64,000 nucleotides of DNA from assembly GCA_021831565.1 (NCBI GenBank), contig JAKBMM010000001.1:80321-144320 (forward strand), in the 5' to 3' direction. The notes below the pieces were generated by a model that was not told where the DNA came from, made no database searches, and worked only from the letters and a program-made list of their open reading frames with translations. Shown here one piece after another: positions 23,875 to 63,926 of the stretch (its first letter is position 1; each line of letters opens with the position of its first letter). Position numbers and translations under genes: made by a program. Origin of the DNA: Planctomycetota bacterium. GTDB taxonomy: Bacteria > Planctomycetota > Phycisphaerae > WQYP01.

Positions 23875-25997
23875 AAACAGGTGGTGATATGCATACGGCG
23901 GCACAGCTCAGACGTCATCTGACAATGGGCCGGACAATTCTACTGACAATGGGACTGCCCCTGTTTGTGGGCGCTTCTCTTCTGGGGGTGATGGACAGCG
24001 TGCGTAAATCTCTGCTGCTGCTGGTGGGATTCGGTTCGGTGATTTTTTTCCATGAACTGGGGCATTTTCTGGCCGCTAAATCGTTCGGTATCCGTTGCGA
24101 TGTGTTTTCCCTGGGGATTGGACCGCGGCTCTGCGGCTGGAGAAGGGGCGTGGGGTTTGCCTTTGGGGCTGTGCCGATTGGACCACGCAACGAAAGTGAA
24201 CAAGAAAGTGAACAAGAAAAAATTCCGGCGACCGGAGGGAAGAAAAAAATCGGGGAAACAGACTATCGGCTGGCCTGGCTGCCGTTTGGCGGCTATGTGC
24301 GAATGCTCGGCCAGGATGACCTGGATCCGAGCAAGGCCAGCGCCGATCCGGCGTCGTTTGGGAAAAAGCCGATCTGGCAGCGGATGGTGGTGATTTCCGC
24401 CGGTGTGGTTATGAATTTGATTTTTGCCGTGATTCTTTTCGCGGCGATTTTCCGCATGGGTGTGAAGTTCCCGCCGGCGGTGGTCGGATCAGTAGCCTAT
24501 AACAGCCCCGCGCAAAAGGCCGGCCTGCACGCCGGCGACCGTATTATTTCCATCGATCACCACAAACCACGCGGATTTCTGGAATTCACGGACTTGGGTG
24601 TCGCCGCGGCGCTGGACAGCCCCGGCCGGCCGGTACGTTTGCAATACGTCCGTCCAGGAAGCGCCCGGACGCACAGCGTTCGACTGATTCCAGTGAATAA
24701 TCCCGATACCGGCCTGCTGGCGTTCGGTATCAGCGAGGCGCCCCGGTTGAAAATTCCCCAATTCACTCCCGCGGGTTTGAAAACTTTCGTCAGGGAAAAC
24801 CCCGAATTCAAAGGGCTTGTTCCCGGTGCGAAAATTGTTTCGGTCAACGGAGTAAAAATTCGCAGTTGGGCCGGCCTTCATCAGATGATTGAGCGCTCCG
24901 GTGGCAAGTCGTTGCGGGTCAAGCTGGTGCGGCCGGTCCCACCGGTGCGGACAGCGACACTGGTTCTCCCGGCGCACCTGACCTTGCGCGACTGGGTTAA
25001 TCAAACACCGGACATCCTGGGGATGCATCCCCTGACGAAAATCGCCGAGGTTCTTCCCGGAGGCGCGGCGGCCGCGGCGGGCGTCAAAAAAAATGATCTG
25101 GTTGTGCGGTTGGGAACTCTGGCCTACCCGACCATTCACCAGTTCATAAAACTGATAGAATCGAGCGCCGGCAAGCCGCTGGCCATGATTGTTCTTCGCG
25201 GCGGCAAACAAACAAAGTTATTCGTTAAACCGAAAATATCCTCCTGGTCCATTTTTTCAACGCCCCCTCGAATCGGTGTCGCCTTGACGCCCTGTTTTGA
25301 CCGGGCAATCGTCGGCCAAGTAAATAAACGGGCGCTCCAGGCCGGCGTCAAACCCGGCCAGATGCTGGTGGGAATTGCCCTGGGGTCGCACGCGACCAAA
25401 GTATTGCCCATTGGCAGTTGGGGCCAACTGGTTAATGATCTGGGAGGATACGACGGAAAGACGGTGGTTTTACATTTCGCAAACCGGGGCGCTCCAGTGA
25501 CTACCGCGTTTACCTCCGCCGAGAAACTGGGCTTGCGCCAATTCCAGTATCAAATCGGATTGCCGCTGGAACCGCTGCTGGAACTCCAGCGAAGCCGCTC
25601 CCTGGTGGGAGCGGCGATCATGGGAATCGATCACACCTGGCGGTGGATTGTCCGTACGTACCTGACACTGCGGGGACTGGGCGTGGGAACCATTTCACCG
25701 CATCAACTTCACAGCGTCATTGGAATCGCCAAGGTGGGATATGAATTTGAGAGCCGGGGTTTTACCTATCTCTTGTATTTTCTGGGACTTATTTCAGTTA
25801 ATCTGGCGGTCATCAATTTTCTGCCGTTGCCGATTCTGGACGGCGGATTGTTTGTTCTTCTGATTGTCGAAAAGTTCCGCGGAAAACCGCTTTCGGTACG
25901 CGTGCAGACGGCGATTCAGGTGGCGGGAATCGCCTTGATTGGCGCTTTATTTTTGTATATCACCATTTTCAACGATCTGCCGACACTTTTTAAATAA
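23871..25997 (+). CDS. rseP: Regulated intramembrane zinc metalloprotease (site-2 protease, M50) with PDZ domains
   Basis: HELGHFLAAKSFGI HExxH motif in TM1, multiple PDZ-like segments, and the C-terminal LDGG motif (NFLPLPILDGGLFV). ATGA overlap with dxr, which matches the conserved dxr-rseP synteny. Confidence 0.85.
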   Translation: MKTGGDMHTAAQLRRHLTMGRTILLTMGLPLFVGASLLGVMDSVRKSLLLLVGFGSVIFFHELGHFLAAKSFGIRCDVFSLGIGPRLCGWRRGVGFAFGAVPIGPRNESEQESEQEKIPATGGKKKIGETDYRLAWLPFGGYVRMLGQDDLDPSKASADPASFGKKPIWQRMVVISAGVVMNLIFAVILFAAIFRMGVKFPPAVVGSVAYNSPAQKAGLHAGDRIISIDHHKPRGFLEFTDLGVAAALDSPGRPVRLQYVRPGSARTHSVRLIPVNNPDTGLLAFGISEAPRLKIPQFTPAGLKTFVRENPEFKGLVPGAKIVSVNGVKIRSWAGLHQMIERSGGKSLRVKLVRPVPPVRTATLVLPAHLTLRDWVNQTPDILGMHPLTKIAEVLPGGAAAAAGVKKNDLVVRLGTLAYPTIHQFIKLIESSAGKPLAMIVLRGGKQTKLFVKPKISSWSIFSTPPRIGVALTPCFDRAIVGQVNKRALQAGVKPGQMLVGIALGSHATKVLPIGSWGQLVNDLGGYDGKTVVLHFANRGAPVTTAFTSAEKLGLRQFQYQIGLPLEPLLELQRSRSLVGAAIMGIDHTWRWIVRTYLTLRGLGVGTISPHQLHSVIGIAKVGYEFESRGFTYLLYFLGLISVNLAVINFLPLPILDGGLFVLLIVEKFRGKPLSVRVQTAIQVAGIALIGALFLYITIFNDLPTLFK

Positions 25998-59871: not shown

Positions 59872-61404
59872 ATGCTGGCCAAGGTGCACAGTTTCGTCCT
59901 GCAGGGCATTGACGCCCTGCGCTGCGAGGTTGAAGTCAACATCGCCAATCGCGAATATGGCGATCCGTTGATTGTTGGCCTGGCGGATAAGGCGGTGAGC
60001 GAATCGCTCGATCGTATTCACACCGCGATGGTCAACAGCGGTTTTCCGTTTCCGCAGCAGCAGTTGCTGGTCAACCTGGCGCCGGCGGACATTCGCAAGG
60101 AAGGCAGCGCCCTGGAATTGCCGATCGCCCTGGGAATTCTCCAGGCCGGACGGACCATCACCGGCGAAGGCCACAAAAAATTTCTGGTCGCGGGAGAATT
60201 GGCGCTCGACGGTTCGGTACGCCCCATCAAGGGCGCGTTATCGATGGCCATGCTTGCGGCGCAGAGCGGTTTTGCCGGCGTGCTGTTGCCGCCGGCCAAT
60301 GCCCGCGAAGCCGCCGTGGTGCCGGGTGTCGATATTTTCGCCATCGACTCTCTGACGGCCCTGGTCGGATTTTTCAACGGTCAACTGGAACTGGAGCCGG
60401 AAGCCGCCGAAGACGCCGGGAGCAACGCCGACACCATCAACTACGACGTGGATTTCGCCGACGTACGCGGCCAGGAGTTGGCCAAGCGCGCACTGACGAT
60501 CGCCGCCGCCGGCCGGCACAATGTACTGCTGCTGGGCCCGCCGGGGGCCGGCAAGACCATGCTTTGCCAGCGCCTGCCGACCATTCTGCCGCCGCTGACC
60601 CGCCAGGAAGCGCTGGAAACATCGCGGGTTTACTCGGCTTGCGGCCTCCTGCCGAAAGAAACCAGCCTGCTGCGCACGCGACCGGTGCGCACGCCCCATC
60701 ACACGGCCAGCGGCGCGGCCATGGTGGGCGGCGGAAGCATTCCGCGACCCGGTGAAGTGTCTCTGGCTCATCACGGCGTGCTGTTTCTGGATGAATTGCC
60801 GGAGTTTTCCCGCCACGTGCTGGAAATGCTGCGCCAACCGCTCGAATCGGGCACGGTCACGATCGCCCGGTCGCATTCGAGCACAAGTTTTCCGGCGCGT
60901 TTCATGCTGGTGGCCGCGATGAATCCCACCGCCGGCGGCAAGGGCACGCTGGATCGACGCAAGGCCAGGAGCACCGAACTGGCCGCGATGGACAAATACA
61001 TGGGTAGACTTTCCGGACCCCTGTTGGATCGCATCGACATTCATCTGGAAGTGCCCGCGGTCACCTATCGCGACCTGACAAGCAAGGCCGCCGGCGCCAG
61101 TTCGGCCCAGATGCGCCGGCAGGTGCAGCAGGCGCGGGACGTGCAGGCCAAACGCTTCGGACCGCAGAGCACCATGACCAACGCCGCGATGAAAACGCAA
61201 CAGATCAAGGAATTCTGTCCGTTGGATGACACCTGCCTGTTGCTGATGAAACAGGCGATGGAGGAACTCGGCTTGAGCGCCCGAGCTTTCGATAAAGTCC
61301 GCCGGCTTTCGCGAACCATCGCCGATTTGGACGGGGTGGAGCACATTGGTCCGCCACACATCACAGAGGCGATCGGCTACCGGCTGCTGGACAGGAAGTA
61401 TTGA
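59872..61404 (+). CDS. comM: Mg-chelatase-like AAA+ ATPase YifB/ComM family
   Basis: N-terminal Lon-protease-like domain, Walker A LLLGPPGAGKTML, Walker B VLFLDELPEF, and a C-terminal ChlI domain. The start was trimmed to MLAKVHSFVLQG. Confidence 0.85.
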   Translation: MLAKVHSFVLQGIDALRCEVEVNIANREYGDPLIVGLADKAVSESLDRIHTAMVNSGFPFPQQQLLVNLAPADIRKEGSALELPIALGILQAGRTITGEGHKKFLVAGELALDGSVRPIKGALSMAMLAAQSGFAGVLLPPANAREAAVVPGVDIFAIDSLTALVGFFNGQLELEPEAAEDAGSNADTINYDVDFADVRGQELAKRALTIAAAGRHNVLLLGPPGAGKTMLCQRLPTILPPLTRQEALETSRVYSACGLLPKETSLLRTRPVRTPHHTASGAAMVGGGSIPRPGEVSLAHHGVLFLDELPEFSRHVLEMLRQPLESGTVTIARSHSSTSFPARFMLVAAMNPTAGGKGTLDRRKARSTELAAMDKYMGRLSGPLLDRIDIHLEVPAVTYRDLTSKAAGASSAQMRRQVQQARDVQAKRFGPQSTMTNAAMKTQQIKEFCPLDDTCLLLMKQAMEELGLSARAFDKVRRLSRTIADLDGVEHIGPPHITEAIGYRLLDRKY

Positions 61405-61585
61405 GCCGCGGCTCATCCCATTGCAATTGGGAATTCAAACTTTATGGATGGGATAATGCCGTACCCCCATTAGAGCCTATCCTGGATAGGCTCTATGCCG
61501 GTCATAATAAACCGGCCACCCTGGTGGCCGATTACTTGTGGTCGTGAAATCGCGGCATGCGGGGACTGACCGAACTATTCATTAA

Positions 61586-61632
61586 CCCGCGGCGGGAACC
61601 CGCGGCGGGCAAGGCCCGCCCGCTAAACCGGG
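61586..61632. repeat. REP-like GC-rich palindromic element (orientation L), distal copy 3' of the RAYT gene
   Basis: CCCGCGGCGGGAACCCGCGGCGGGCAAGGCCCGCCCGCTAAACCGGG. It shares the GGCCCGCCCGCTAAACCGG core with the other copies. Confidence 0.6.
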
Positions 61633-61930
61633 ATGTACTTGATTGCGTCTATGACGATCATATATGGTCATCCACGGCGGGGCCGCGCCCCCGATGAAAT
61701 GGTTTATCCAAAGCACAAAACCGCAGGTGAGCCAGTTTCAATCCGCATCGGGGCCGCGAGCCCCTCGATCTGATGCAGCGCACAACGGCGGTTGCAGTAA
61801 AGGTGATCATTCAACGAGGAAATGGATACCGGGTCAGGATGTTCCATATTCATACCCCTGCATCATTTCCAAATCACCGCAAACTCCGTTTAGCGCCATC
61901 GCCCGGCAAGGGGTGTCCCCGTTACGACCA

Positions 61931-61963
61931 CGCGGCGGGGCCGCCCCGCCCGCTAAACCGGGG
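61931..61963. repeat. REP-like GC-rich palindromic element (orientation L), abutting the RAYT 3' end
   Basis: CGCGGCGGGGCCGCCCCGCCCGCTAAACCGGGG, the same core motif. A partial inverted copy of the GTTTAGCG tail lies at 61886-61895. Confidence 0.6.
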
Positions 61964-62531
61964 TACGCGGCCACGGCCGGACAAATTCCCAACGCTGCCG
62001 CGGCAGACCCGCCTTAACCGGGTTGGCGTTGGTGTATTGGATCGCGAGCTGGATGGCATCCACATCATTGAGAAACACATGCCATCCGCCGCGCGCCCAT
62101 ATCGGCTGATCCGGGCGGAGGCCTTGAGCGCCGAGTTGTTTGGTCGCGCGGCTCTTGAGGTGGCCGACAACTTCCTCGATCGTCCGCTGATGCCGCAATA
62201 TCACCGCGTGCACGTGATCCGGCATGATGGCGCAGGCCACCATCCGAAAATCAGCCTCATCGCACGCCACCTGAAATCCACGGCTGATGGCAGCAATCTG
62301 CGCGTTGGTAAACCGCATCGGGGTGGAGGCAAGGGCGTTTTTAGTCCGCAGCCGGTCCGCGCGGTCGTGTGGGATCGCGGCGACGGATCGCCGGGCGCCG
62401 CAGGCAGTCCCGCCGCCGGCGGCGTAAAAAAGGTCCCACGATCGCACATAATCCGACCATGATCCGCGCGGATCATTGGGCAACCAAAATCCGTAGGCAC
62501 AAAAAATGCTGTGATACGCCAGCACCGCCAT
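61953..62531 (-). mobile_element. REP-associated tyrosine transposase (RAYT; IS200/IS605-like HuH Y1 transposase, TnpA_REP)
   Basis: 192 aa. HuH motif in MPDHVHAVIL. Catalytic Tyr in the conserved AIQYTNANPVKAGL (Y..NPV.AGL). N-terminal YHSIFCAYG typical of the IS200 fold. Flanked by inverted REP clusters. Confidence 0.75.
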
Positions 62532-62540
62532 GTATGAATC

Positions 62541-62637
62541 CCCGGTTTAACGGCATCGCCCGCGATACGTCAACGCCCCGTTTGGCGGGTCCGCCATGCA
62601 CAAATCCGTGTTTAGCGGGGCCGCCCGGCGGTCCGCG
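62541..62637. repeat. Cluster of three REP-like elements (orientation R, inverted relative to the copies on the other side of the RAYT gene)
   Basis: CCCGGTTTAACGGCATCGCCCGCG, CCCCGTTTGGCGGGTCCGCC and CCGTGTTTAGCGGGGCCGCCCGGCGGTCCGCG. The core GTTTAGCGGG.GCCCGCC is the reverse complement of the left-side core. Confidence 0.6.
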
Positions 62638-62715
62638 AACGGCCCATTTATCGCGGCGTGTCGGAACCGCGAGGCGCGATCGTTCATGCCGGCGGCCCGT
62701 TTTTCACCGGCAACA

Positions 62716-62752
62716 CCCGTTTACGTTTAGCGGGCGGGCCTGCCCGCCGCGC
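62716..62752. repeat. REP-like element (orientation R), distal copy 5' of the RAYT gene
   Basis: CCCGTTTACGTTTAGCGGGCGGGCCTGCCCGCCGCG, containing the same core plus an internal GCGGGCnnGCCCGC palindrome. Confidence 0.6.
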
Positions 62753-62851
62753 CATTCCCGGCATGCCGGGATTCAACGCGCGAGATCTGGAATTTTCGGT
62801 CCATATAATAAATATCATACGATCTCCGACATGAGAGGCCCTTTCCTGGCG

Positions 62852-62874
62852 ACGCCCGAATGCGGGCGTTTTTC
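62852..62874 (+). terminator. Candidate intrinsic terminator (ACGCCC-gaatgc-GGGCGT followed by TTTTT) in a region without convincing ORFs
   Basis: 6-bp perfect GC stem, 6-nt loop and T5 run on the plus strand. No annotated plus-strand gene lies upstream, so it may end a small RNA or a read-through transcript. Confidence 0.35.
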
Positions 62875-63380
62875 ATAAGCGGCGGCGCACAGCAGCCGGA
62901 TCATTCGGTGAATTGCCTGCCGCTGGGATTTTACCGCGCGCCACGACGCCGTCACAACTGGAAATATCATCCCCTTCCGCGCTCCGCGCGGGCTTGGCAA
63001 TTTTTCCGGACTGGGCGGAATTCCCGCAAAACAAGCCCTGTTCGTCACGCCGCAGAGCCTTCCCGATGGGTACAAGCGGGTGGGGACATCCGCGTTCGTT
63101 AAGGATGCCCGGAAAAATCGCCACACCCATCCGCGCCCGGTTGCCGGTTCATGCTGGCGAGGGTGTGTAGAATCGTTTATTGTTACGCCCAGGTTCGGGA
63201 TCGGAGTTGATACCGCCGGCCGCGGCTTGCGACCGATGCCCGGCCGGGATCGCGTTCCGGGCCGAACCGTTGACGAATCGACGAAATGCCCGTCGTGGAC
63301 GACGCGGATCGACCCATGGGTATGATGGACATATAAAATTTGGTTTCGCCGTGGATCAGGCAATAGCGGGAGTGTCTCAC

Positions 63381-63926
63381 ATGAATGAACTGGAACCGGT
63401 CAGTGGCGCCCCACCGGCGGTTTTAACCCCCGAAATTCAACTGCTGGTCATGGACGTGGACGGCGTGCTGACCGATGGCGGCATTATCCGCGACGACAGC
63501 GGCCAGCAGATCAAGCGATTCCACGTGCGTGACGGAACCGGCCTGGTGATGTGGCGGCGGCTGAACCGTCAGACGGCGCTGCTCACCGGAAAGGAAAGTC
63601 TGGTGGTCCAGCACCGCGCCGAAGAACTCGGCATTCAATACGTCTACCAGAACGTAAATAACAAGCTCGAAATCTACGGCGATCTGCTTGCGCAACTTGG
63701 CTTGAACGACGCCCAGACGGCTTACATCGGCGACGATTTGCCGGACCTGCCGGTGATGCGGCGCTGCGGCTGCCCCATCGCCGTGGCCGACGCGGCGGAG
63801 GAAGTTCGCGCCGCCGCGCGGTACGTCACCAAATATCCCGGCGGCTACGGCGCCGTGCGCGACGCCGTGGAATGGCTCTGCAAGCGAATGGGCCTGTGGA
63901 ACCAGGTGCTTGCCCGCTACACTTGA
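63381..63926 (+). CDS. kdsC: 3-deoxy-D-manno-octulosonate 8-phosphate phosphatase (HAD superfamily, YrbI family)
   Basis: HAD motif I LLVMDVDGVLTDG, motif II (TGKES), and motif IV GDDLPDLPVMRRCG. 181 aa after trimming to MNELEPV. GGGAG Shine-Dalgarno upstream. Confidence 0.8.
   Translation: MNELEPVSGAPPAVLTPEIQLLVMDVDGVLTDGGIIRDDSGQQIKRFHVRDGTGLVMWRRLNRQTALLTGKESLVVQHRAEELGIQYVYQNVNNKLEIYGDLLAQLGLNDAQTAYIGDDLPDLPVMRRCGCPIAVADAAEEVRAAARYVTKYPGGYGAVRDAVEWLCKRMGLWNQVLARYT

What the first reader, a model, noticed from the sequence alone, without database searches (positions are those of the whole stretch)
61586..62752. RAYT (REP-associated HuH tyrosine transposase) flanked by inverted clusters of REP palindromes
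A 192-aa IS200-fold protein with HVHAVI (HuH) and the YTNANPVKAGL tyrosine motif sits between two clusters of GC-rich REP-like elements sharing the core GGCCCGCCCGCTAAACCGG. There are two copies on one side and at least four on the other, in inverted orientation. This is the REPIN-RAYT architecture of a domesticated single-copy transposase that mobilises its flanking REPs. One REP overlaps the gene 3' end. It marks a REP family that presumably populates the rest of the genome and can be used for strain typing.
Basis: partly seen in the sequence, partly recalled or inferred. Interest (0 to 1): 0.55.

Follow-up and report, generated by a model that had tools for sequence, protein, structure and literature searches.

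The report
RAYT–REP cluster left from decayed CRISPR locus
This is a genuine REP-associated tyrosine transposase gene hemmed in by its own palindromic repeats, but the repeats are not seen elsewhere in the 64 kb, and the gene turns out to be the only intact survivor of a former type I-C CRISPR-Cas operon, belonging to a clade that in other bacteria sits inside working CRISPR-Cas loci.

Summary
ORF 61953-62531 (-) encodes a 192-aa HuH/Y1 protein with H106-V-H108, Y166 and N170-P171. Its best solved relative, by sequence profile and by fold, is E. coli TnpA-REP (4ER8). Seven REP-like units surround it: a 5' head CCnGTTTAG, then a GC hairpin. Four are strong and three degenerate, the nearest heads face the gene, and one head supplies the TAG stop.

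Across 84 homolog loci the head octamer is about 100-fold enriched within 100 nt of the gene. In one 3.9-Mb genome the same REPs are dispersed as doublets. So this is a REPtron of a Planctomycetota RAYT clade with a non-canonical head (GTTTAG, not GT[AG]G).

No other REP copy exists in the window or in 8.5 kb beyond it, so genome-wide spread is unshown here. Just downstream of the gene lies a 32-codon cas4 fragment.

Seven of the nine distinct contexts read in this RAYT's own clade (56-71% identity; the window is one of the nine) lie inside or beside CRISPR-Cas loci of types I-C, I-G and II-C. The two I-G-linked genes fall in one subclade and the four I-C-linked genes in the other. The window locus is therefore a decayed I-C operon. 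I found no paper describing a RAYT-CRISPR link. Whether the link is functional is open.

The parts
61953..62531 (-). RAYT-type HuH/Y1 gene, 192 aa, intact. H106-V-H108, Y166, N170-P171; family-specific N-terminal motif AYGFWLPNDPRGSWS.
   Evidence: ORF. Pfam Y1_Tnp 26.1 bits, above its cut-off of 23. NCBIfam REP_Tyr_transpos 61.6 bits, below its cut-off of 80. Invariant residues in 23 homologs. The family profile's best PDB hit is 4ER8, E 1.4e-5, with Y166 aligned to Y115 and N170 to N119. AlphaFold model pLDDT 79.8; best Foldseek hit is 4ER8. 99.5% identical in four other assemblies.
62725..62751 (+). REP R4 (strong): GTTTAGCGGGCGGGCCTGCCCGCCGCG. Outermost unit upstream of the gene; near-identical inverted copy of L1.
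   Evidence: I6: 17 nt, 100% complementary to 61612-61628; hairpin -10.5 kcal/mol. 96-100% identical over 24-30 nt to REPs in other Planctomycetota loci.
62610..62637 (+). REP R3 (strong): GTTTAGCGGGGCCGCCCGGCGGTCCGCG. Same REP type as the units flanking the RAYT inside type I-C cas operons.
   Evidence: blastn gives 81-86% identity to L208 5835-5862, L210 5965-5999 and L209 6565-6596.
62580..62599 (+). REP R2 (degenerate): head GTTTGG, short hairpin.
62545..62569 (+). REP R1 (degenerate): head GTTTAAC, weak hairpin. Lies 14 nt from the RAYT start codon.
   Evidence: (D3).
61931..61958 (-). REP L2 (strong): GTTTAGCGGGCGGGGCGGCCCCGCCGCG. Its head provides the TAG stop codon of the RAYT.
   Evidence: The same overlap of stop codon and head occurs in 11 of 84 homolog loci.
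61888..61907 (+). REP L3 (degenerate): GTTTAGCGCCATCGCCCGGC. Forms an inverted doublet (REPIN-like) with L2. Aligns with the REP that precedes cas4 in I-C loci.
   Evidence: (D3); alignment A3 columns 85-105.
61758..61853 (-). cas4 pseudogene fragment: first 32 codons, MNMEHPDPVSISSLNDHLYCNRRCALHQIEGL. It then leaves homology and stops at 61704.
   Evidence: tblastn: 75% identity over 32 aa to L210 Cas4 (E 3e-14 against a 2-kb target) and 55-59% to L208 and L209 Cas4. Contiguous DNA homology between L210 6009-6756 and window 62520-61759 (68%, 768 nt, E 3e-69).
61735..61766 (-). Hairpin GGGGCTCGCGGCCCC followed by GAT and GCGGATTGAAAC. Possibly a degenerate terminal type I-C CRISPR repeat.
   Evidence: The 12-mer equals the 3' end of the CRISPR repeats of L208, L210 and L211. 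A similar hairpin lies 71 nt away, which is the array period (D2). The local alignment score is not above the window-wide background, and the hairpins also resemble REP L2. Inconclusive.
61664..61693 (-). Second GC hairpin (GGGGGCGCGGCCCCGCCGTGGAT). Either a degenerate REP without a head or a degenerate CRISPR repeat.
   Evidence: D2, I9, I10.
61601..61628 (-). REP L1 (strong): GTTTAGCGGGCGGGCCTTGCCCGCCGCG. Outermost unit downstream of the gene; inverted partner of R4.
   Evidence: 96-97% identical to a REP doublet in L117, an uncultured Phycisphaeraceae bacterium.
61584..61609 (.). 13-nt tandem duplication (AACCCGCGGCGGG x2) of the 3' arm of REP L1.
   Evidence: (D1).

Best explanation
The region is a REPtron: an intact RAYT-type HuH/Y1 single-strand DNA endonuclease gene together with its cognate REP elements. 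Each REP has an unpaired 5' head C(G/A)TTTAG(C), followed by a GC stem of about 7-9 bp with a CTTG-like loop.

Inferred mechanism, by analogy with E. coli TnpA-REP:
- The protein binds a REP hairpin extruded on single-stranded DNA and reads the unpaired head.
- It cleaves next to the head with Tyr166. The His106/His108 pair holds the metal ion.
- It rejoins the ends, and in this way moves or copies REPs and REP doublets.

The gene belongs to a Planctomycetota (mainly Phycisphaerae) RAYT clade. That clade's head, and the residues at the head-reading positions, differ from the canonical GT[AG]G families.

This particular copy is a relic. Its ancestor sat between cas7 and cas4 of a type I-C CRISPR-Cas operon, where its close relatives still sit. 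The cas genes and the array were lost. What remains is the RAYT, its REPs, the first 32 codons of cas4 and perhaps one or two degenerate CRISPR repeats, now lying between comM and kdsC.

In this genome the REPs appear to have multiplied only locally. There are seven units within 1.2 kb and none in the other ~71 kb available.

Shown: the fold, the motifs, the REP anatomy, the REP-gene association across homologs, the cas4 relic, and the CRISPR context of relatives. Inferred: the catalytic mechanism, REP mobilisation, and the order of the deletion events.
For: Protein:
- Pfam Y1_Tnp hit above its cut-off. The best NCBIfam model is REP_Tyr_transpos.
- More than 1,400 homologs; where a taxon is named it is Phycisphaerae or Planctomycetota, and JGI calls many of them RayT.
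- H106, H108, Y166, N170 and P171 are invariant.
- The family profile and the predicted structure both hit 4ER8 first.

REPs:
- Seven units share CCnGTTTAGCGGG. They are clustered with P of about 1e-8.
- In 83 non-conspecific homolog loci, TTTAGC[CG]G occurs at 7.9 per kb within 100 nt of the gene, against 0.02-0.09 per kb beyond 500 nt, and never inside the gene. 59 of 84 loci have it within 500 nt.
- The consensus hairpin is conserved across the family.
- L007, from a 3.9-Mb contig, has a REP doublet on each side of the gene and three further dispersed doublets in 20 kb.
- One Thermoguttaceae MAG carries at least 16 dispersed copies with the same head.
- L143 holds two paralogs, each flanked by its own REP type.

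CRISPR relic:
- The cas4 fragment and the contiguous homology from RAYT into cas4.
- Relatives lie inside I-C operons (L208-L211), inside I-G operons (L214, L215) and next to cas9-cas1-cas2 (L212).
- The window protein nests in the I-C-linked subclade.
Against: - No REP copy lies outside the cluster in the window plus 8.5 kb. REP mobilisation across this genome is therefore not demonstrated.
- The protein is below NCBIfam's RAYT cut-off, and the head is not GT[AG]G.
- Copy number per genome was not testable.
- Individual hairpins are no more stable than shuffled sequence.
- No remnant of cas7, cas8, cas5 or cas3 was found upstream. A move of RAYT plus the cas4 fragment to a new site cannot be told apart from in-place deletion.
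- The CRISPR-repeat reading of 61735-61766 is not statistically secure.
- The tree is a neighbour-joining tree without support values.
Confidence: 0.78

Rival explanations
1. The RAYT of this clade is a recruited CRISPR-Cas accessory gene. Its HuH nuclease, or its REP hairpins, would act in or regulate the adaptation module (cas4-cas1-cas2). The window copy would then be an orphan that outlived its system. This reading is compatible with the anatomy described above; it differs only in what the gene is for.
For: - 7 of the 9 distinct contexts in the 56-71% identity clade are in or next to CRISPR-Cas loci of three subtypes, and the window itself carries a relic.
- None of 85 more distant loci has a Cas1.
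- In type I loci the gene always lies on the cas strand, between the effector genes and cas4. Gaps are small: 19-114 nt (or a 4-nt overlap) to cas4 in I-C, and 28-69 nt from the upstream effector gene in I-G.
- The two I-G-linked genes fall in one subclade and the four I-C-linked genes in the other.
- Divergence between the L208 and L210 RAYTs (70% identity) is similar to that of Cas1, Cas4, Cas3 and Cas8c in the same two loci (68-73% identity).
- The arrays have many unique spacers, so the systems look active.
Against: - Every CRISPR-embedded copy still carries flanking REPs, and in L210 REPs also fill the cas4-cas1 and cas1-cas2 gaps. This is what a selfish REPtron riding in the operon would look like.
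- The gene persists intact without cas genes in the window and in L005/L006.
- REPs are unrelated in sequence to the CRISPR repeats.
- Only nine contexts were sampled.
- Defence loci are general hot spots for mobile DNA.
Confidence: 0.25
2. The unit bounded by the inverted REPs L1 and R4 (61601-62751) is an autonomous mobile element similar to IS200/IS605. It would have jumped from a cas operon into the comM-kdsC gap, carrying a piece of cas4 with it.
For: - L1 and R4 are near-identical inverted copies that bracket exactly the gene plus the cas4 fragment.
- Relatives lie in unrelated neighbourhoods.
- 18 of 91 homolog loci scored show the gene inside a single REP pair with heads pointing outward.
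- Several contigs break right at the gene.
Against: - The Tyr motif is Y-x3-N-P, which is the RAYT class, not the Y-x3-Q of IS200 (PMC6006769 Table 1).
- The end hairpins of IS200/IS605 lie on one strand, whereas here the REPs are inverted.
- There is no tnpB.
- No second copy of the gene exists in 72 kb.
- The locus is identical in five conspecific assemblies.
- The tree separates the I-C-linked and I-G-linked genes, which argues for long co-inheritance rather than frequent jumping.
Confidence: 0.1
3. The repeats are chance GC-rich palindromes or ordinary terminators in a GC-rich genome and have no relation to the gene.
For: Single hairpins fold no better than shuffles. One terminator-like hairpin downstream of comM lies nearby.
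Against: - The clustering statistics.
- The same head and hairpin flank homologs that are only 45-70% identical, with about 100-fold positional enrichment.
- Paralogs each carry their own REP type.
Confidence: 0.02

Closest known systems
E. coli TnpA-REP (RayT/YafM) with its REP/BIME cluster, the 'REPtron' (PDB 4ER8; PMC3333891, PMC3479197, PMC8266576)
   Same: - HuH/Y1 fold, a single Tyr, and the Y-x3-N-P motif. It is the best hit by both sequence profile and structure.
- The gene is flanked by inverted REP hairpins that carry a conserved unpaired 5' head.
   Different: - About 13% sequence identity.
- A ~45-residue insertion after strand 1 carries the invariant WLPNDPRGSWS motif and is modelled with low confidence.
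- The head is GTTTAG, not GTAG.
- Four of the five residues that PMC6006769 places in the GTAG-recognition region differ: Q95, E100, H101 and R104 align with A146, H151, V152 and N155.
- No dispersed REPs are seen in this window.
Pseudomonas REPIN-RAYT systems (Bertels and Rainey; RAYT groups 2 and 3; PMC3116915, PMC5581495)
   Same: - REP doublets in inverted orientation next to a RAYT.
- Each paralog has its own REP type (L143).
- Doublets are dispersed in at least one related genome (L007).
   Different: - A different phylum and a different head.
- The motif triple DHVH / WA / YVNxNP matches none of the subclasses in Table 1 of PMC6006769.
- In this genome the REP population is not detectable outside the cluster.
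Class 3 TnpA-Y1 of Planctomycetes, Acidobacteria and Proteobacteria (PMC6006769)
   Same: Found in Planctomycetes, of similar length (about 178 aa), with W followed by A or T, and flanked by atypical hairpins in a REPtron-like arrangement.
   Different: Class 3 has Y-x4-Q (YV[VI][AENY]EQ) and a CnGA foot. This protein has Y-x3-N-P and a GTTTAG head.
IS200/IS605 TnpA (IS608, ISDra2)
   Same: The same fold and HuH/Tyr chemistry, and the same principle of recognising a hairpin on single-stranded DNA.
   Different: IS200 has Y-x3-Q, is dimeric, has both end hairpins on one strand, is multi-copy and is often accompanied by tnpB. None of these features is seen here.
Transposon-derived components of CRISPR-Cas (Cas1 from casposons; Tn7-like CRISPR-associated transposons)
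   Same: A transposase-family gene is stably linked to cas operons.
   Different: No RAYT or other HuH/Y1 gene has been described as CRISPR-linked in the papers I could search. No functional link is shown here.

Membership tests
RAYT / TnpA-REP (class 2 TnpA-Y1) | HuH/Y1 fold with His-u-His and one catalytic Tyr in a Y-x3-N-P motif | tested here: met
   H106-V-H108 and Y166-T-N-A-N170-P171 are invariant in 23 homologs. They align with Y115 and N119 of 4ER8. Foldseek's best hit is 4ER8.
RAYT / TnpA-REP (class 2 TnpA-Y1) | Gene flanked by REP hairpins in inverted orientation | tested here: met
   Seven units, with the nearest heads facing the gene. The same holds in most homolog loci.
RAYT / TnpA-REP (class 2 TnpA-Y1) | The flanking REPs are over-represented elsewhere in the same genome | tested here: inconclusive
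   None in the other ~62.8 kb of the window plus 8.5 kb. The genome-collection scan was truncated. The feature is met in a relative's genome: L007 has three dispersed doublets in 20 kb.
RAYT / TnpA-REP (class 2 TnpA-Y1) | Single copy, or a few divergent copies, per genome | not testable with these tools
   Only 72 kb of this genome is available, with one copy in it. The locus is the same in five assemblies.
RAYT / TnpA-REP (class 2 TnpA-Y1) | Canonical 5' GT[AG]G head at the foot of the hairpin | tested here: not met
   The head is C(G/A)TTTAG(C) in the window and across the family.
NCBIfam NF047646 REP_Tyr_transpos (equivalog) | Score at or above the curated cut-off of 80 bits | tested here: not met
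   61.6 bits, covering residues 70-179 only.
IS200/IS605 insertion sequence | Y-x3-Q motif, multiple copies, left- and right-end hairpins on one strand | tested here: not met
   Y-x3-N-P. NCBIfam transpos_IS200 scores 25.5 bits against a cut-off of 55. REPs are inverted. Copy number was not testable.
Class 3 TnpA-Y1 (PMC6006769) | Y-x4-Q motif and a CnGA foot | tested here: not met
Type I-C CRISPR-Cas locus (decayed) | Recognisable cas gene remnant in the order seen in intact loci | tested here: met
   32 codons of cas4 lie directly after the RAYT, and the homology is contiguous with L210.
Type I-C CRISPR-Cas locus (decayed) | CRISPR repeats | tested here: inconclusive
   A 12-nt exact match to the repeat's 3' end, plus a hairpin, plus 71-nt spacing. 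The score is not above background, and there is no array in the window.

The most novel reading that the evidence does not exclude
A clade of RAYT-type HuH/Y1 nucleases in Phycisphaerae is a stable component of CRISPR-Cas loci, with a possible function there. It lies between the effector genes and cas4(-cas1)-cas2 in types I-C and I-G, and next to cas9 in type II-C. It may act on single-stranded DNA during spacer acquisition, or its REP hairpins may set the expression of the adaptation genes. The window gene would be an orphan of that clade that outlived its cas operon.
Probability: 0.25. Interest if true: 0.8.

Novelty: new variant of a known kind. Interest (0 to 1): 0.6.

Why it matters
RAYT-REP systems are known mainly from Proteobacteria and Cyanobacteria, where the head is GT[AG]G. 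This locus documents a large Planctomycetota clade of more than 1,400 proteins. Its head is different but strongly conserved, its head-reading residues are different, and it has a distinctive N-terminal motif. That makes it a natural test case for how a RAYT reads its REP.

It also shows a RAYT that is kept intact although no dispersed REP population is visible nearby. This bears on the open question of why RAYTs are maintained.

The unexpected part is that this clade lives inside CRISPR-Cas operons of three subtypes, with the I-C-linked and I-G-linked genes in separate subclades. If that link is functional, it would add a single-strand DNA HuH nuclease to the accessory genes of CRISPR adaptation. 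If it is not, it is a clear example of a domesticated-transposase cassette riding in, and outliving, a defence locus.

Tried and rejected
- Genome-collection scan for GTTTAGCGGGCGGGSC. This genome was not among them, so the genome-wide REP count could not be obtained.
- Single-sequence search of the PDB. It gave only weak IS200 hits; an alignment profile was needed.
- Search for remnants of cas7, cas8, cas5, cas3, cas1 and cas2 in the window. Nothing beyond the cas4 fragment. A 12-aa cas7-like match at 63048-63083 has E of about 2 and is treated as noise.
- Alignment of the I-C CRISPR repeat to 61586-61800. The score of 25 is matched elsewhere in the window, so it is not significant on its own.
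- TTTAGCSG hits at 24080 and 57963. Both lie inside coding sequence without a hairpin and are chance matches.
- Rfam scan of 61300-63400. Only two matches, both far below their families' gathering scores.
- Promoter and terminator scan. No excess over shuffled sequence.
- PADLOC. No defence-family hit for the RAYT.
- IMG/VR viral contigs. No relatives.
- Search for cas genes in 85 more distant homolog loci. None found.
- Synteny between the window and relatives at 52-62% identity. None.
- Literature searches for a RAYT or HuH link with CRISPR. Nothing relevant found.
Full report
**1. What is in the sequence**

The ORF 61953..62531 on the minus strand encodes 192 aa with PDHVHAVIL and YTNANPVKAGL. 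It lies between comM (Mg-chelatase-like, ending at 61404, + strand) and a KdsC-type HAD hydrolase (63381-63926, + strand).

It occurs nowhere else in 64 kb, where 0.05 matches are expected.

Aligning all candidates gives seven units with the consensus CCnGTTTAGCGGG followed by a GC-rich hairpin.
- Strong units: L1 61601-61628 (-), L2 61931-61958 (-), R3 62610-62637 (+), R4 62725-62751 (+).
- Degenerate units: L3 61888-61907 (+), R1 62545-62569 (+), R2 62580-62599 (+).

Seven of the 21 one-mismatch matches to CCGCTAAAC in the window fall within these 1.1 kb. About 0.25 are expected there, so P is about 1e-8.

Read along the gene's strand, the order is:
[hairpin-CTAAAC] x4, gene, [GTTTAG-hairpin], [degenerate hairpin-CTAAAC], about 300 nt, [GTTTAG-hairpin].
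The nearest heads therefore face the gene. The TAG of the L2 head is the gene's stop codon.

As single-stranded DNA, R4 folds as GTTTA followed by GCG-GGCGGG-CCTG-CCCGCC-(G)-CGC. Individual hairpins are not more stable than shuffled sequence. The argument therefore rests on repetition and conservation.

**2. The protein**

- Pfam Y1_Tnp scores 26.1 bits against a cut-off of 23.
- The best NCBIfam model is REP_Tyr_transpos, but at 61.6 bits it is below its cut-off of 80 and covers only residues 70-179. transpos_IS200 is far weaker.
- A database search found 1,424 homologs. Where a taxon is named it is Phycisphaerae or Planctomycetota, and JGI often labels them 'REP element-mobilizing transposase RayT'.
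- In an alignment of 23 homologs at 50-68% identity, H106, H108, Y166, N170 and P171 are invariant. So is an N-terminal block, Y13-G-F-W-L-P-N-D..G-S-W-S26.
- A profile of that alignment hits E. coli TnpA-REP (4ER8) first, at E 1.4e-5. Y166 aligns with the catalytic Y115, and N170 with N119.
- An AlphaFold model has mean pLDDT 79.8. The core, residues 70-180, is above 90; residues 19-54 are below 50. Its best Foldseek hit is again 4ER8, followed by the IS200/IS605 transposases.

Table 1 of PMC6006769 gives motif triples for each TnpA-Y1 subclass. This family has DHVH / WA / YVNxNP.
- That is the class 2 (RAYT) Tyr motif.
- The Trp motif, however, is the one otherwise listed for class 3 or IS200.
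- No subclass matches all three.

PMC6006769 places W94, Q95, E100, H101 and R104 of the E. coli enzyme in the region assigned to GTAG recognition. Here they align with W145, A146, H151, V152 and N155. That fits a different head.

**3. Are the repeats really this protein's REPs?**

I fetched 84 non-redundant homolog loci at 45-62% identity.
- The octamer TTTAGC[CG]G occurs at 7.9 per kb within 100 nt of the gene and 2.7 per kb at 100-200 nt. Beyond 500 nt the rate is 0.02-0.09 per kb, and it never occurs inside the gene. These densities are from 83 loci, leaving out the conspecific L001.
- 59 of 84 loci have it within 500 nt.
- The family-wide consensus is C-(G/A)-TTTAGC-(C/G)-G, then a GC stem, then a G-C-T-T-G-C centre.
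- In 11 of 84 loci the head supplies the stop codon, as it does here.
- L143 carries two paralogs, 62% identical, each with its own REP type.
- L007, from a 3.9-Mb contig, has a strongly folding REP doublet on each side of the gene (z -4.3 and -5.2). It has three more doublets elsewhere in 20 kb.
- The truncated genome scan also showed at least 16 dispersed copies with the same head in one Thermoguttaceae MAG, and several in a Phycisphaeraceae MAG.
- The L1/R4 type of REP recurs at 96-100% identity over 24-30 nt in many Planctomycetota loci.

The family is therefore a bona fide RAYT-REP system with a non-canonical, conserved head.

**4. What is not shown for this genome**

- No further REP copy exists in the window. 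The only other TTTAGCSG matches, at 24080 and 57963, lie inside coding sequence without hairpins.
- blastn of the REP units finds nothing longer than 11-15 nt elsewhere.
- Four conspecific contigs, 99.4-99.9% identical, add 8.5 kb and contain none.
- If the doublet density were that of L007 (0.15 per kb), about 10 would be expected in 71 kb, so P is about 3e-5 (my calculation).
- The claim that the REPs populate the rest of the genome is therefore unsupported here. It is not refuted either, because up to about 170 copies per 4 Mb remain compatible with zero in 71 kb.

**5. The unexpected context**

To test synteny I looked up the closest non-conspecific homologs.
- P0019, P0023 and P0014 (64-65% identity) all lie inside a type I-C operon, in the order cas3-cas5-cas8c-cas7-[RAYT]-cas4-cas1-cas2 on one strand.
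- P0021 (69%) is followed by cas4-cas1-cas2 and a 23-repeat array.
- P0033 and P0027 (56-60%) lie in type I-G operons, between the GSU0054 gene and the cas4-cas1 fusion.
- P0007 (70%) lies next to cas9-cas1-cas2.
- P0022 (62%) lies next to an MmeI-type restriction system.
- All of these copies keep their flanking REPs. In L210, REPs also fill the cas4-cas1 and cas1-cas2 gaps.
- The CRISPR repeats (GTTCTCCGCGGCCCAAAGCCGCGGAGCGGATTGAAAC) are unrelated to the REPs.
- None of 85 more distant loci has a Cas1 or any other of these cas genes.
- In a neighbour-joining tree of 119 homologs, all CRISPR-linked genes, the window gene and the restriction-linked gene form one clade of 36 tips. The clade has an I-G subclade and an I-C subclade. 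The window gene and the II-C-linked gene sit inside the I-C subclade.

**6. The relic in the window**

tblastn of the I-C proteins against the whole window gave one hit. Directly downstream of the RAYT, on its strand, 61853..61758 reads MNMEHPDPVSISSLNDHLYCNRRCALHQIEGL.
- This is 75% identical over 32 aa to the N-terminus of L210 Cas4, and 55-59% identical to L208 and L209 Cas4. From my own knowledge of Cas4, the match includes the N-terminal cysteine motif.
- DNA homology with L210 runs without a break from the RAYT through the intergenic REP doublet into cas4 (768 nt at 68%, E 3e-69; alignment A3).
- Homology stops at 61758.
- The next bases form a hairpin followed by GCGGATTGAAAC. That is the exact 3' end of the I-C repeat of the related arrays.
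- A similar hairpin lies 71 nt further on, which is the array period.
- This looks like one or two terminal repeats of a lost array. However, the alignment score is not above background, and the hairpins also resemble REP L2. I leave this point open.
- No other cas remnant and no array is present in the window.

The locus is therefore best read as a decayed type I-C CRISPR-Cas locus in which only the RAYT stayed intact. The alternative is that the RAYT and a piece of cas4 were moved to the comM-kdsC gap. The near-identical inverted REPs L1 and R4 bracket exactly this remnant.

**7. Mechanism**

Most of this section is inferred.

By homology with E. coli TnpA-REP, the protein should act as follows:
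- It binds a REP hairpin on single-stranded DNA.
- It reads the unpaired head.
- It cleaves with Tyr166, with the His pair holding the metal ion.
- It rejoins the DNA, and so copies or moves REPs.

The source for this is the abstracts shown for PMC3333891, PMC3479197 and PMC8266576, together with my own knowledge.

The local pile-up of seven units and the 13-nt duplication of the L1 arm fit local activity. Nothing here shows activity directly.

**8. Comparison and novelty**

The locus works like a RAYT REPtron and meets the fold, motif and flanking-REP criteria. It fails the canonical-head criterion and the NCBIfam cut-off. REP over-representation and single-copy status could not be established. 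It is not IS200 and not class 3.

I file it as a new variant of a known kind. The CRISPR association of its clade is, as far as my searches reach, not described. I rate the association itself as real (about 0.85) and a functional link as possible (about 0.25).

**9. Caveats**

- The tree has no support values.
- Metagenome-assembled contigs can be chimeric. Against that, the same gene order recurs in independent assemblies.

Noticed in passing
L208 6001-6582, L209 6001-6633, L210 6001-6576, L211 408-1004, L214 8001-8588, L215 8001-8561, L212 5245-5820: The closest relatives of the window RAYT lie inside type I-C operons (between cas7 and cas4), inside type I-G operons (between the GSU0054 gene and cas4-cas1), or next to cas9-cas1-cas2. 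That is seven of nine contexts in the clade. No cas genes occur in 85 more distant homolog loci.
   Followed up: partly
window 61758-61853 (-): A 32-codon N-terminal fragment of cas4 lies directly downstream of the RAYT. It is the only cas remnant in the 64 kb.
   Followed up: yes
window 61735-61766 and 61664-61693 (-): Two similar GC hairpins lie 71 nt apart. The first ends in GCGGATTGAAAC, which is the exact 3' end of the type I-C CRISPR repeat of related loci. They may be terminal repeats of a lost array, or degenerate REPs.
   Followed up: partly
L210 7380-7401 and 8495-8525: In one I-C operon, REP units also occupy the cas4-cas1 and cas1-cas2 intergenic gaps. The REPs have spread locally within the adaptation module.
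   Followed up: no
L160, L165, L174, L177, L183, L193, L207 (and others): A second architecture exists in the wider family. A single REP pair with heads pointing outward encloses the gene (GTTTAG-hairpin about 50 nt upstream, hairpin-CTAAAC about 50 nt downstream), as if the gene sat inside one large REPIN. 18 loci have this form and 17 have the heads-inward form.
   Followed up: partly
L143 2221-2778 and 6757-7320: Two RAYT paralogs, 62% identical and 4 kb apart, are each flanked by a different REP type (heads GTTTCGCC/GTTTAGTGG against ATTTAGCCGCC).
   Followed up: partly
L211 1-400: Upstream of a CRISPR-linked RAYT there is a tandem array of roughly 155-nt units. Each unit contains two hairpin-CGCTAAAC REPs, all in one orientation, and the contig starts inside the array.
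   Followed up: no
L099, L057, L106, L121, L037 (Thermoguttaceae MAG), L043, L117, L136, L151: REPs 96-100% identical over 24-30 nt to the window's L1/R4 type occur in genomes of different Planctomycetota classes. This is unusually strong conservation for a REP sequence.
   Followed up: no
window 61584-61609: Perfect 13-nt tandem duplication (AACCCGCGGCGGG x2) of the 3' arm of REP L1.
   Followed up: no
window 62760-63380: About 620 nt without a convincing gene lie between the REP cluster and kdsC. The stretch contains a + strand hairpin followed by a run of T (GACGCCCGAATGCGGGCGTTTTT, 62851-62873) just after a TATAAT-like box near 62806. A weak Rfam CcsR1 match (21 bits against a gathering score of 65) overlaps it.
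   Followed up: no
window 61471-61495 and 61513-61530: A perfect 12-bp palindrome (TAGAGCCTATCC/GGATAGGCTCTA) and a GC hairpin lie just downstream of comM. They are probably its terminators and are unrelated to the REPs.
   Followed up: no
L209 6001-6633: In this I-C locus the RAYT ORF has lost its usual stop. It runs 4 nt into cas4 and encodes a 210-aa product with an unrelated C-terminal tail.
   Followed up: no
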